This document shows, one piece after another, positions 41,301 through 44,300 of a stretch of DNA of 64,000 nucleotides; positions within the stretch are counted from its first letter, which is position 1; every line of letters starts with the position of its first letter. The position numbers were made by a program. The DNA comes from Escherichia coli (GTDB lineage Bacteria; Pseudomonadota; Gammaproteobacteria; Enterobacterales; Enterobacteriaceae), in NCBI RefSeq assembly GCF_046105845.1, contig NZ_CP151004.1; one strand, written 5' to 3'.

Positions 41301-44300
41301 CCGCGACAGTTTGATTCATGCCAGGGATTCCTGCACATGAAGGCTTGCAGCATAAGCCTTCTGATAACGTTTTTTCGCTTCCGCACGGGCAGGCTTGCCG
41401 GAGGACGTTCGGGGAATACTGTGGGGCGGCAACAGATCGATAGCCGCTGTTACGCCAAATTCGCTTTGGATCCGTGCTACCAGCGCGTGGATAAGCTGCC
41501 CACGACGTTCTTCGTCGCTGATCCGACACTGGATCTGCAAAATGATTTTTTCCTGGGCGGTAACAAAAGCAATCGCATCGCCAGAATGAATTTCCGGTTC
41601 CTGTTCCGCAATATATTCAATATCCTGCGGCCAGATATTACGGCCACGAATAATAATCAGATCTTTAATGCGCCCGGTGACATACAGATAACCGTCCAGC
41701 AGATAACCGAGGTCGCCGGTGTCTAACCAGCCCGTCGCGGCAATCTCGTCTTGTGAAATCTGGTCGCCAAAGTAACCGCTCATCAGGCTAGGGCCGGAGA
41801 TGCAAATATGGCCTACCACACGTTCCGCGGCAGGTATACCTGCTTCATTGCGGATTTCAATGCCATGTTCTGGCAACGCTTTACCGCAGTTGACGAAAGT
41901 CGATACGGCGCGTGTTTCAGCACCCGGCGCGACGGCTTTGCCCTGATATTCAAGGATGTCGCGATCCACTTCGTTAACCACAACCCCGGAGGCTTCATCA
42001 GAGAAGCTGACAGCCAGCGCATTTTCTGCCAGTCCGTAGCACGGCATGAACGTTTTATCGTCAAAGTTAACCTGACGGAAACATTCAGCGAATTGATGGA
42101 GTTGTTCTGCGGAGATCGGCTCAGCACCAATACCAGCGACGCGCCAGCAGGATAGATCCAGTTCAGCGAGATCTTTTTCATTCACGCGGCGCTGGCACAA
42201 TTCATAGCCAAACGGCGGCGCAACGGAAACGGTGCCGCGATTTTTACTGATCAATTTAAGCCATTGCAGAGGACGCATGGCAAAATCCTGAGTGCGCAAA
42301 TAATCTACTGAGAGCTGCGTGGCGACGGGGGTCAGGAGAAAGCCGACCAGTCCCATATCATGGTAGAAAGGCAGCCAGGAGACGCAGCGGTCGCCAGGGC
42401 GTAATTTAATGCCATCGTGGCTTATAGCACGTAGATTAGCCATCACTTCGCGATGGGTGATAATGACGCCACGGGGAAAACGGGTGCTGCCGGAGGTGTA
42501 CTGGAGGTAGGCGATATCGTTCGGAACTGGATGCTGGAGTGCAACATCGGCTTCCGGTAATGCCTTAAACCAGGCGTGGCTTAAAACATGTAATTCGGGG
42601 TTGTTATGCGTAGCGGCATTGACCAGTGGCAACCACTCATCACCAGTGATAATGGCTGCGGGCTGGCAACTTGTCAGTAAACCCTGCAGTTTGGCGCTCC
42701 AGGAATCCCGCTGACCGACGCCCATTGGAATCGCCAACGGGACGGCGACTAAGCCGGCATACTGGCAGGAAAAAAAAGCCTCTACGAACCCGCTACTGGT
42801 TTCGGCAATCAGCGCCACGCGATCGCCTTTTTTCAGGTTCAGCGATAACAACCGCTTCGCACCAGCTTCGGCACGCGCTTTTAACGTCTGATATTCCAGT
42901 TGATCTTCAAGTTGGCAACGTCTGTCATAAAAATTCATTCCGGCGCTACTCAGAGCGGCGTAGTCCAAAGCATCAACCAGCGTTGGAAAATCGGCATAGC
43001 GCATAGGTAGGGAATGCGTAAAGATTTTATTAGACATATACACCACGAAAAAATTGGATATCAAAAATAAAATGACAATAATGCGGTGGATTATATAGGC
43101 ATAAAAGATAAATGAGATAGTATTTTCATCAGTGTGAAAATGAACATTGATTTAAATAATGAGTTTGAGTTTTTTTGTTTTTATTGTGAATGATATTTAA
43201 TTTATGAATATATTAAGAATAAGCCTTGTCCGGTCGCCTTAAATCGACAAAAGGCATTGTGGCGCTTCTGTGTAGTCTCTAACCTTATCGTAATCATTAA
43301 TAAATACTATTTATTCGTCGTTTGTATTCATTGGGTTGATTATTAAGGTGCCGTTCGTTGCTGTTGCAACCTGTTTGTCACCGTTAATTATTTGTTACCC
43401 ACAGAACTATGGAATGCGATCTGCTGATGATTAAAATTGAAAAAGTAATTAATAAAAATGACCTTAAGGCATTTATCGCTTTTCCGTCATCACTTTATCC
43501 CGACGATCCAAACTGGATACCCCCTTTATTCATTGAACGCAACGAGCATTTGTCTGCGAAAAATCCGGGGACGGACCATATCATCTGGCAGGCGTGGGTG
43601 GCAAAAAAAGCGGGGCAGATAGTTGGGCGTATTACCGTGCAAATAGATACCTTGCACCGCGAGCGTTACGGTGAAGATACCGGTCATTTCGGCATGATTG
43701 ACGCCATTGATGATCCGCAGGTTTTTGCCGCGTTGTTTGGCGCAGCGGAAGCGTGGTTGAAGTCACAAGGTGCAAGTAAGATCAGCGGTCCTTTCAGCCT
43801 GAATATCAATCAGGAAAGCGGATTACTGATTGAAGGTTTCGATACACCACCCTGTGCGATGATGCCGCACGGTAAACCGTGGTATGCCGCGCATATTGAA
43901 CAATTGGGTTATCACAAAGGCATTGATTTACTAGCGTGGTGGATGCAGCGAACCGATCTCACTTTCTCTCCGGCGCTAAAAAAACTGATGGATCAGGTGC
44001 GTAAGAAGGTGACCATTCGCTGCATCAATCGCCAGCGGTTTGCCGAAGAGATGCAGATCCTGCGTGAGATTTTCAACTCTGGCTGGCAGCACAACTGGGG
44101 ATTTGTGCCGTTTACCGAACATGAATTCGCGACTATGGGCGATCAACTTAAATATCTGGTGCCGGACGATATGATCTACATCGCTGAGATTGATTCTGCA
44201 CCCTGCGCGTTTATTGTTGGCTTGCCAAACATCAACGAGGCGATTGCCGATCTGAACGGATCGCTCTTTCCCTTCGGCTGGGCAAAATTGCTGTGGCGTT

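What the first reader, a model, noticed from the sequence alone, without database searches (positions are those of the whole stretch)
43065..43408. 344-bp AT-rich divergent control region for the lipid operon and yghO
The spacer is strongly AT-rich with A/T tracts and no ORF, typical of xenogeneic-silencer (H-NS-type) targets and complex divergent promoters. Inference: the block is probably silenced or conditionally expressed, which would explain why its product is undescribed.
Basis: inference. Interest (0 to 1): 0.45.

Follow-up and report, generated by a model that had tools for sequence, protein, structure and literature searches.

The report
AT-rich control spacer of sphingolipid genes
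This 371-bp AT-rich gap sits between two back-to-back gene sets that E. coli would use to make ceramide-type lipids. It looks like a normally switched-off, partly very conserved promoter region that the silencer protein H-NS probably coats, but no binding data were available to prove it.

Summary
The spacer between the fatty acyl-AMP ligase gene (aasR, minus strand) and yghO (plus strand) is 69% AT, against 48% for the window. It has no conserved ORF, no Rfam hit and no significant RNA fold. Its true limits are 43038-43408, not 43065.

The "lipid operon" is not undescribed. It is the aasR-epi-acpR-spt sphingolipid operon, and yghO is the homologue of the Caulobacter ceramide N-acyltransferase. 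Both were characterised from E. coli BL21 in 2022.

H-NS silencing is plausible, but the support is indirect:
- The composition matches the neighbouring yghT/yghS spacer, which is listed as H-NS-associated and SlyA-inducible in K-12.
- The chromosomal operon contributes no detectable product in BL21.
- Sigma-70 promoter matches are weaker than in most shuffled copies.

Some evidence argues against a purely generic silencer target:
- The genes have normal GC.
- The locus is in 76% of E. coli genomes and is syntenic across Enterobacterales.
- A 93-bp block next to aasR is almost invariant across Escherichia (5% variable columns versus 50% at four-fold sites).

Overall this is an ordinary kind of element: a new, modestly interesting member of the class of AT-rich, conditionally silent divergent promoters.

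The parts
41313..43037 (-). aasR, a fatty acyl-AMP ligase (specialised acyl-ACP synthetase). It is the first gene of the aasR-epi-acpR-spt sphingolipid operon.
   Evidence: RefSeq annotation. NCBIfam PRK09192 scores 869 bits against a cutoff of 600. Equated with ECD_02851/AasR in PMC9386255.
43038..43408 (.). The divergent intergenic spacer: 371 bp, 31% GC. It would be 389 bp if yghO starts at 43427.
   Evidence: Present full-length in 4136 of 5426 complete E. coli genomes.
43038..43130 (-). Block A: a 93-bp stretch next to aasR that is almost invariant across Escherichia. It probably holds the aasR core promoter, an operator and the 5' UTR.
   Evidence: 5 of 93 columns vary across 8 Escherichia lineages, against 177 of 355 four-fold sites in the flanking genes (Fisher p = 2.5e-17). 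Alignments.
43090..43095 (-). Candidate aasR -10 hexamer TATAAT. The -35 (ATCTCA, 43113-43118) is poor. The predicted start site is near 43083, which would give a 5' UTR of about 46 nt.
   Evidence: PWM scan. Invariant in Escherichia. Pseudocitrobacter has TATAAC or TATAAA at the aligned position, and Hafnia has a TATAAT nearby that does not align to it. No start-site data exist.
43131..43183 (.). Variable T-rich segment.
   Evidence: 20 of 53 columns vary, which does not differ from the neutral rate.
43184..43219 (+). Block B: a conserved AT-rich block that holds the best plus-strand sigma-70 match. The -35 is TTGTGA (43184) or GTGAAT (43186) and the -10 is TATATT (43209-43214). The predicted start site is near 43221.
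   Evidence: 8 of 36 columns vary, p = 0.0015. Prediction only.
43220..43284 (.). A GC-richer central island that is hypervariable between Escherichia lineages.
   Evidence: 48 of 65 columns vary, more than at four-fold sites (p = 4e-4). No homology to other genera.
43285..43312 (+). Block C, conserved. The CTTATC motif (43284-43289), which overlaps its left edge by one base, recurs roughly 100-140 nt upstream of yghO in many genera.
   Evidence: 7 of 28 columns vary, p = 0.017. Cross-genus view.
43383..43397 (+). ArcA-box-like direct repeat GTTAATTATTTGTTA, a 13 of 15 match. This is a lead only.
   Evidence: 0.8% of shuffles match as well, but 20 motifs were tested. The consensus was recalled from memory. 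The second half-site TGTTA is invariant in Escherichia.
43409..44551 (+). yghO, the homologue of the Caulobacter CC_1154 acyl-CoA N-acyltransferase (the ceramide-forming step). An alternative start lies at 43427.
   Evidence: Annotation. Equated with 'aca' in PMC9386255 Figure 9. No Pfam or NCBIfam hit. Start-codon comparison.

Best explanation
The spacer is the shared bidirectional promoter and operator region of E. coli's ceramide-synthesis genes: aasR-epi-acpR-spt to the left and yghO to the right. Both promoters are intrinsically weak. The likely aasR promoter has a perfect -10 (TATAAT, 43095-43090) but a poor -35, and yghO has only sub-consensus candidates and a poor ribosome-binding site. 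The roughly 570-bp tract of 60-74% AT most likely acts as a loading site for an H-NS/StpA filament that occludes both promoters, so the locus stays off in ordinary culture. Expression would then need a sequence-specific factor that binds the conserved blocks, above all the 93-bp block next to aasR, and activates or counter-silences, as SlyA does at the neighbouring yghS promoter.

Shown: the composition, the divergent gene arrangement, the pattern of conservation, the weak promoter matches, and the lack of product from the chromosomal copy in BL21. Inferred: H-NS occupancy, the promoter positions, and the existence and identity of the activator.
For: - **Composition.** 31% GC over 371 bp, in the lowest 0.6% of windows. 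GC, TpA frequency and A/T-tract density match the yghT/yghS spacer and the sslE upstream region.
- **Neighbouring promoter.** yghS is listed as H-NS-associated (Kahramanoglou and Oshima datasets) and rises 3.1-fold on SlyA overproduction in K-12 (PMC5797941).
- **Weak promoters.** The best sigma-70 PWM scores (8.7 and 7.4) are below the best score in 90% of shuffles. The consensus scan finds no more sites than chance.
- **Silent in culture.** BL21(DE3) with empty vectors, or expressing SPT alone, makes no 3-oxo-sphinganine, and only AcpP is labelled (PMC9386255).
- **Specific operator.** 5 of 93 columns vary, against 50% at four-fold sites. The -10 region is shared with Pseudocitrobacter.
- **IS insertions nearby.** K-12 carries IS5 and strain AF40 carries IS4 at or next to the tract. 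IS5 and other transposons favour AT-rich, H-NS-bound DNA (PMC11677980; PMC11335895 abstract).
- **Filament length.** H-NS filaments of 0.2-20 kb are reported (PMC9765446).
Against: - No ChIP, start-site or hns-mutant data for this spacer could be obtained.
- The Lang-type high-affinity H-NS motif occurs once at 2 mismatches and is not enriched.
- Predicted intrinsic curvature is average: mean 9.2 degrees against 8.7 for the window, with only two local peaks (parameters recalled from memory).
- The flanking genes have normal GC (0.49-0.55), so any filament would be short.
- AT-rich spacers of this degree are not rare in E. coli: about 5 of 28 in this window.
- Lack of product in BL21 could also reflect a missing inducer acting through a classical activator, with no role for H-NS.
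Confidence: 0.55

Rival explanations
1. It is an ordinary activator-dependent divergent promoter region with no significant H-NS role. A specific transcription factor, such as a global regulator of envelope, redox or lipid status, binds the conserved blocks. The genes are off in the laboratory simply because the signal is absent.
For: - Strong, localised purifying selection is the signature of sequence-specific sites, not of H-NS coating.
- The promoter has a poor -35.
- There is an ArcA-like 13 of 15 direct repeat just upstream of yghO.
- CTTATC recurs upstream of yghO across genera.
- The H-NS motif and curvature are unremarkable.
Against: - No known factor's consensus survives correction for the 20 motifs tested.
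- 31% GC over more than 370 bp is more extreme than most regulated E. coli promoters in this window.
- The sister promoter yghS is in H-NS ChIP lists.
Confidence: 0.3
2. The spacer hides an unannotated functional gene, either a small protein or a small or cis-regulatory RNA (for example a riboswitch-like leader of yghO). That gene would account for the conserved blocks.
For: - If yghO is transcribed from around 43221, its leader would be about 190-205 nt and would contain blocks C and D.
- An 18-codon ORF (43146 to about 43090, minus strand) lies inside block A.
Against: - No Rfam match even at E <= 10.
- Folding energy is no better than in shuffles (z = 0.01 and -1.13).
- The only terminator-like hairpin is weak and partly deleted in two lineages.
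- The small ORFs have no ribosome-binding site, and their 5' codons change non-conservatively between lineages.
Confidence: 0.07
3. It is a decaying, non-functional region of a locus that E. coli is losing, and the AT-richness reflects mutational drift after loss of function.
For: - K-12 has lost the locus (IS5 plus a deletion).
- O157 Sakai has lost the whole pheV-pitB interval to SpLE3.
- AF40 carries IS4 in yghO.
- The central island is hypervariable.
Against: - The spacer is full-length in 76% of complete genomes.
- Flanking proteins are 95-98% identical while four-fold sites differ by 16-35%.
- The divergent arrangement is kept in more than 40 species.
- Block A is under strong constraint.
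- The E. coli enzymes are active in vitro and in vivo.
Confidence: 0.05

Closest known systems
H-NS-silenced, SlyA counter-silenced promoters of E. coli K-12 (hlyE, fimB, and the yghS promoter of this same cluster)
   Same: An AT-rich upstream region of about 30% GC, often in a divergent arrangement. They are silent in standard culture and are induced when an antagonist displaces H-NS. yghS belongs to the same gene cluster and its spacer has the same composition.
   Different: No H-NS or SlyA binding has been shown here. No match to the SlyA palindrome within 3 mismatches. The spacer contains a 93-bp ultra-conserved block that has no described counterpart.
The sphingolipid/ceramide gene cluster of Caulobacter crescentus (CC_1162-CC_1165 plus CC_1154), and the E. 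coli BL21 cluster ECD_02850-02854 described by Padilla-Gomez et al. 2022
   Same: The same five structural genes. E. coli and Caulobacter are the two organisms in which all five are clustered. The spacer studied here is the one between ECD_02850 (yghO) and ECD_02851 (aasR).
   Different: That work covers the enzymology. Promoters, regulators and native expression of the E. coli cluster are not described. Searches for H-NS together with sphingolipid and SPT terms found no paper.
Classical H-NS nucleation regions (proU, bgl)
   Same: A high-AT tract spanning the promoter and the start of the coding region. There are IS insertions at or next to the tract, as with IS5 and IS1 at bgl.
   Different: Those loci have mapped high-affinity sites and/or strong curvature. 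Here the 10-bp high-affinity motif is not enriched and predicted curvature is ordinary.

Membership tests
H-NS/StpA-bound silenced regulatory region | A tract of at least about 200 bp that is markedly more AT-rich than the genome and rich in TpA steps | tested here: met
   69% AT over 371 bp. The tract below 40% GC is about 570 bp long. TpA frequency is 0.100 against 0.044.
H-NS/StpA-bound silenced regulatory region | High-affinity nucleation motif (TCGATAAATT-like) | tested here: not met
   One hit at 2 mismatches in the spacer. The window as a whole has 72 hits against 63 expected. Not every H-NS target has this motif.
H-NS/StpA-bound silenced regulatory region | Intrinsic DNA curvature or phased A-tracts | tested here: inconclusive
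   Mean predicted curvature is ordinary: 34% of windows are as curved or more. Two local peaks near 43055 and 43116 reach about the 99th percentile. The wedge parameters were recalled from memory.
H-NS/StpA-bound silenced regulatory region | In vivo occupancy by H-NS (ChIP) | not testable with these tools
   K-12 and Sakai lack the spacer. CFT073 has it, but the stored ChIP table is cut before these genes.
H-NS/StpA-bound silenced regulatory region | Derepression in hns or hns stpA mutants, or by a counter-silencer | not testable with these tools
   The only data are for the neighbouring yghS promoter in K-12 (3.1-fold on SlyA overproduction).
Xenogeneic (recently acquired, AT-rich) island | Coding sequence with a GC content well below the host genome | tested here: not met
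   aasR 0.527, epi 0.55, spt 0.519, yghO 0.493, yghS-lptG2 0.506, against 0.519 for the window. Only the 249-bp acpR is low, at 0.406.
Xenogeneic (recently acquired, AT-rich) island | Patchy, strain-specific distribution | tested here: not met
   The spacer is in 4136 of 5426 complete E. coli genomes and in all sampled Escherichia clades next to glcC. The same divergent pair is found in more than 40 Enterobacterales and Pseudomonas species. Its absence from K-12 and Sakai is secondary loss.
Divergent (bidirectional) promoter region | Two adjacent genes transcribed away from each other, with no gene between them | tested here: met
Divergent (bidirectional) promoter region | Identifiable promoters and mapped start sites on both strands | tested here: inconclusive
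   Only sub-consensus sigma-70 matches were found. The best-supported is the conserved TATAAT at 43095-43090. No start-site data exist.
Bacterial sphingolipid (ceramide) synthesis cluster | spt preceded by a dedicated ACP, plus an acyl-ACP synthetase, a reductase and an N-acyltransferase | tested here: met
   Annotated as spt, ACP, NAD-dependent epimerase/dehydratase and FAAL. FAAL family confirmed. The equivalence to aasR/epi/acpR/spt/aca and the enzyme activities are published. YghO itself has no Pfam or NCBIfam hit, so its assignment rests on that paper.

The most novel reading that the evidence does not exclude
E. coli's ceramide pathway may be a cryptic, signal-triggered outer-membrane remodelling system. 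Its switch would be the genus-invariant 93-bp element next to aasR (43038-43130), bound by a regulator not yet identified that overrides H-NS. If so, identifying that factor or signal would reveal the conditions under which most wild E. coli strains make sphingolipids. K-12 and O157 have lost the locus.
Probability: 0.25. Interest if true: 0.65.

Novelty: new member of a known kind. Interest (0 to 1): 0.3.

Why it matters
About three quarters of sequenced E. coli strains carry a complete and enzymatically competent ceramide-synthesis cluster, yet no native sphingolipid has been reported from E. coli. BL21 makes none in culture.

This spacer is where that silence is imposed. Knowing whether H-NS or a specific regulator holds it off, and what relieves it, would make the question "when does E. 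coli make sphingolipids?" directly testable. The 93-bp invariant block gives a concrete target for pull-down and mutagenesis experiments.

As a genome feature, though, it is a conventional AT-rich divergent promoter region.

Tried and rejected
- **Rfam scan** of 42800-43700 at E <= 10: only noise. Rfam at gathering threshold on nine related loci found nothing in the spacers.
- **RNA folding** of the putative leaders: no excess stability.
- **Small ORFs:** none conserved.
- **H-NS high-affinity motif and SlyA palindrome:** no enrichment and no hit.
- **Twenty transcription-factor and sigma-factor consensus motifs** against dinucleotide shuffles: only the ArcA-like site reached p of about 0.008, which does not survive multiple testing. 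Apparent Fur, CpxR, RcsAB, PhoB, sigma-E and sigma-54 resemblances were at chance level.
- **Motifs shared with the other spacers of the cluster:** a 10-13-mer (ACCTTATCGT) shared with the yghR-yghQ junction turned out to overlap the yghQ ribosome-binding site. ATGAATATAT, shared with the yghT start, looks like chance. Both were dismissed.
- **Nucleotide homology of the spacer outside Escherichia:** none, apart from a marginal hit to Pseudocitrobacter.
- **Direct H-NS evidence:**
  - The BL21 transcriptome paper has no supplement held.
  - The stored CFT073 ChIP per-gene table is cut before these genes.
  - The ETEC H10407 supplements have no hit for the gene names.
  - O157 Sakai lacks the locus.
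  - Literature searches linking H-NS to this cluster, or by locus tag, returned nothing relevant.

Full report
**Where this is.** The window is E. coli chromosome. The 701 bp around the finding match 4547 of 5426 complete E. coli genomes. RefSeq annotation of the best match gives this gene order:
- gss, pitB, yghT;
- yghS, yghR, a flippase-like yghQ, a hypothetical gene, ytfJ-family, lptF-like and lptG-like on the plus strand;
- spt, an acyl carrier protein, an NAD-dependent epimerase/dehydratase and a fatty acyl-AMP ligase on the minus strand;
- the spacer;
- yghO on the plus strand, then glcC and the glc operon.

Other strains are annotated the same way.

**Checking the observation.** The left limit is only the end of an in-frame TTG ORF. 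The annotated start of the ligase is the ATG at 43037, so the spacer is 43038-43408: 371 bp and 69.0% AT, against 48.1% for the window. Only 0.6% of 371-bp windows are as GC-poor.
- It holds nine A or T tracts of four or more bases.
- Its TpA frequency is more than twice the window's.
- The tract below 40% GC extends from about 42970 to 43540.
- No ORF above 32 aa lies in it, and nothing is annotated there in 30 sampled genomes.

It is not unique, however. Of 28 intergenic spacers in the window, about five are near 30% GC, including the yghT/yghS spacer and the sslE upstream region.

**What the flanking genes are.** The "lipid operon" is described in the literature. Padilla-Gomez et al. 2022 (PMC9386255) studied exactly this cluster in E. 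coli BL21(DE3): aasR (ECD_02851), epi (02852), acpR (02853), spt (02854) and aca = yghO (02850).
- They showed that AasR acylates the dedicated ACP and that SPT prefers acyl-AcpR.
- They state that the five dihydroceramide genes are clustered only in Caulobacter and E. coli BL21.
- The ligase matches NCBIfam PRK09192.
- YghO has no Pfam or NCBIfam hit, so its role rests on the published homology to CC_1154.

**Distribution.** The spacer is full-length in 4136 of 5426 genomes, at 90-100% identity.
- K-12 lacks it: yghO is truncated at about 43449 next to IS5.
- Strain AF40 has IS4 inside yghO.
- O157 Sakai has replaced the whole pheV-pitB interval with SpLE3.
- CFT073, REL606, SE15 and O104:H4 all have it.

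A scan of one genome per species found yghO relatives in 45 loci. In almost all of them aasR-epi-acpR-spt lies divergently upstream, across Escherichia, Citrobacter, Pseudocitrobacter, Serratia, Erwinia, Pantoea, Rosenbergiella, Hafnia and others, and in a few Pseudomonas/Stutzerimonas. Spacer length ranges from 288 to 1113 bp, and its GC is always below that of the flanks. The coding GC of the cluster is normal for E. coli (0.49-0.55). The locus is therefore ancestral and widely retained, not a recent AT-rich import.

**Anatomy and constraint.** I aligned eight Escherichia lineages: the window, REL606, SE15, Ecol_542, E. whittamii and three cryptic-clade genomes. Half of the four-fold degenerate sites in the two flanking genes vary across these lineages (177 of 355). 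Against that yardstick the spacer is a mosaic:

| Segment | Variable columns | Comparison with four-fold sites |
|---|---|---|
| 43038-43130 | 5 of 93 | p = 2.5e-17 (conserved) |
| 43131-43183 | 20 of 53 | not different |
| 43184-43219 | 8 of 36 | p = 0.0015 (conserved) |
| 43220-43284 (GC-richer island) | 48 of 65 | p = 4e-4 (more variable) |
| 43285-43312 | 7 of 28 | p = 0.017 (conserved) |
| 43313-43408 | 22 of 53 and 26 of 48 | not different |

Pairwise divergences tell the same story. Outside Escherichia the spacer has no detectable nucleotide homology, apart from a marginal hit to Pseudocitrobacter. Local alignment does show that the aasR-proximal TATAAT region and the last 15 nt before the start codon are shared with Pseudocitrobacter and Citrobacter amalonaticus; Hafnia shares the pre-start sequence and has its own TATAAT that does not align to it. 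A CTTATC motif recurs roughly 100-140 nt upstream of yghO in many genera.

**Promoters.** The consensus scanner finds no more promoter-like sites than chance (2 against 2.8 expected). A sigma-70 PWM, with frequencies recalled from memory, gives best scores of 8.7 on the plus strand and 7.4 on the minus strand. Ninety per cent of shuffled spacers contain something better. The region is therefore poor in strong promoters despite its composition.
- For aasR, the best-supported candidate is a perfect TATAAT at 43095-43090 with a poor -35, inside the invariant block.
- For yghO, the best candidate is TATATT at 43209-43214, inside conserved block B.
- Homologues in other genera carry a clear TAAGG Shine-Dalgarno sequence before the ATG that corresponds to E. 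coli M7 (43427). E. coli lacks it.

**Other possible contents.** I found no evidence for a hidden gene.
- There is no Rfam hit.
- The putative leaders fold no better than shuffles.
- The single terminator-like hairpin is weak and partly deleted in two lineages.
- Of twenty consensus motifs tested against shuffles, only an ArcA-like direct repeat at 43383-43397 stands out (13 of 15, p about 0.008). After correction for the number of motifs tested it is a lead, not a finding.

**H-NS.** I could not obtain direct evidence. The indirect evidence in favour is as follows.
- The composition is the kind H-NS prefers. It is indistinguishable from the yghT/yghS spacer of the same cluster.
- PMC5797941 lists yghS as H-NS-associated in two ChIP studies and as induced 3.1-fold by SlyA overproduction in K-12.
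- The chromosomal operon appears silent. BL21(DE3) with empty vectors, or with SPT alone, makes no 3-oxo-sphinganine, and only AcpP is labelled.
- IS elements have landed at or next to the tract in K-12 and AF40. IS5 and other transposons are reported to favour AT-rich, H-NS-bound DNA.

The evidence against a simple xenogeneic-silencing picture is as follows.
- The high-affinity H-NS motif is not enriched.
- Predicted curvature is average, apart from two local peaks (parameters recalled from memory).
- The genes themselves are not AT-rich.
- Non-specific coating cannot explain the near-invariance of the 93-bp block.
- The base rate is modest: in CFT073 about a third of non-K-12 genes are H-NS-bound.

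**Verdict.** This is a genuine AT-rich divergent control region. The H-NS mechanism remains an inference, at roughly even odds that H-NS is the main cause. The "undescribed product" premise is outdated.

The most useful new facts are the corrected boundaries, the identity of the locus, the weak-promoter result and the strongly constrained 93-bp block next to aasR. The element is a new member of a familiar class and deserves a low-to-moderate interest score. The score would rise if the block proves to be the switch for native sphingolipid production in E. coli.

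Noticed in passing
window 43409-43427: The annotated yghO start (MECDLLM...) is specific to Escherichia. 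In about 40 homologues from other genera the protein starts at the ATG equivalent to E. coli M7 (43427). That ATG is preceded by a TAAGG Shine-Dalgarno sequence that E. coli lacks, and several genera have in-frame stops upstream.
   Followed up: partly
window 43004-43064: The aasR start codon is annotated inconsistently between RefSeq genomes: 574 aa from the ATG at 43037, or 562 aa from the ATG at 43004. Citrobacter and Pseudocitrobacter have an in-frame ATG three codons upstream, where E. coli has a GTG (43046). Long-spacer genera have an ATG five codons upstream.
   Followed up: partly
L006 spacer positions about 270-440 (and L009, L011, L018, L021, L025, L034, L036, L038, L040, L043): Genera with long spacers (530-1113 bp) share a central block of about 150 bp with no conserved ORF and no Rfam hit. 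Its core, AAAGCATTAAGTGGTAAAAAATAG, looks like an extended -10 promoter (TGnTAAAAT) pointing towards yghO. E. coli has no clear counterpart.
   Followed up: partly
window 32274-32461, 29742-30032, 53998-54482: Three other intergenic spacers are as AT-rich (about 30% GC) as the one studied. The sslE-upstream one also holds four loose matches to the SlyA palindrome within 250 bp (53986-54236).
   Followed up: no
window 32462-38918: The sphingolipid genes sit beside a plus-strand operon that encodes three P-loop kinase-like proteins (YghS and YghR, with YghT divergent), a flippase-like YghQ, a hypothetical protein, a YtfJ-family protein and a second LptF/LptG pair. These co-occur with spt/yghO in other genera in shuffled order. 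That suggests a dedicated system for modifying and exporting the lipid.
   Followed up: partly
L048/L049 (O157:H7 Sakai, NC_002695.2 3852167-3875617): In Sakai the whole interval from pheV to a truncated pitB is replaced by the phage-like element SpLE3. That interval would include gsp, sslE, glc, yghO, the sphingolipid cluster and yghQRST.
   Followed up: yes
L047 about 9500-9515 (REL606), equivalent to window about 43400: A 6-bp duplication (ACAGAA) lies immediately upstream of the yghO ATG in E. coli B and many other strains, compared with the window strain.
   Followed up: no
L045: A 430-bp contig attributed to Macrococcus sp. encodes a fragment 99% identical to E. coli YghO at very low coverage. 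It is probably contamination of that assembly.
   Followed up: no
L006 and L029 (Shimwellia pseudoproteus): This genome has two yghO paralogues. Only one of them (L006) is next to the aasR-spt operon.
   Followed up: no
window 43409-44548 (YghO protein): YghO matches no Pfam-A family even at E <= 10 and no NCBIfam model, although it is annotated as an N-acetyltransferase and is the presumed bacterial ceramide synthase homologue.
   Followed up: partly
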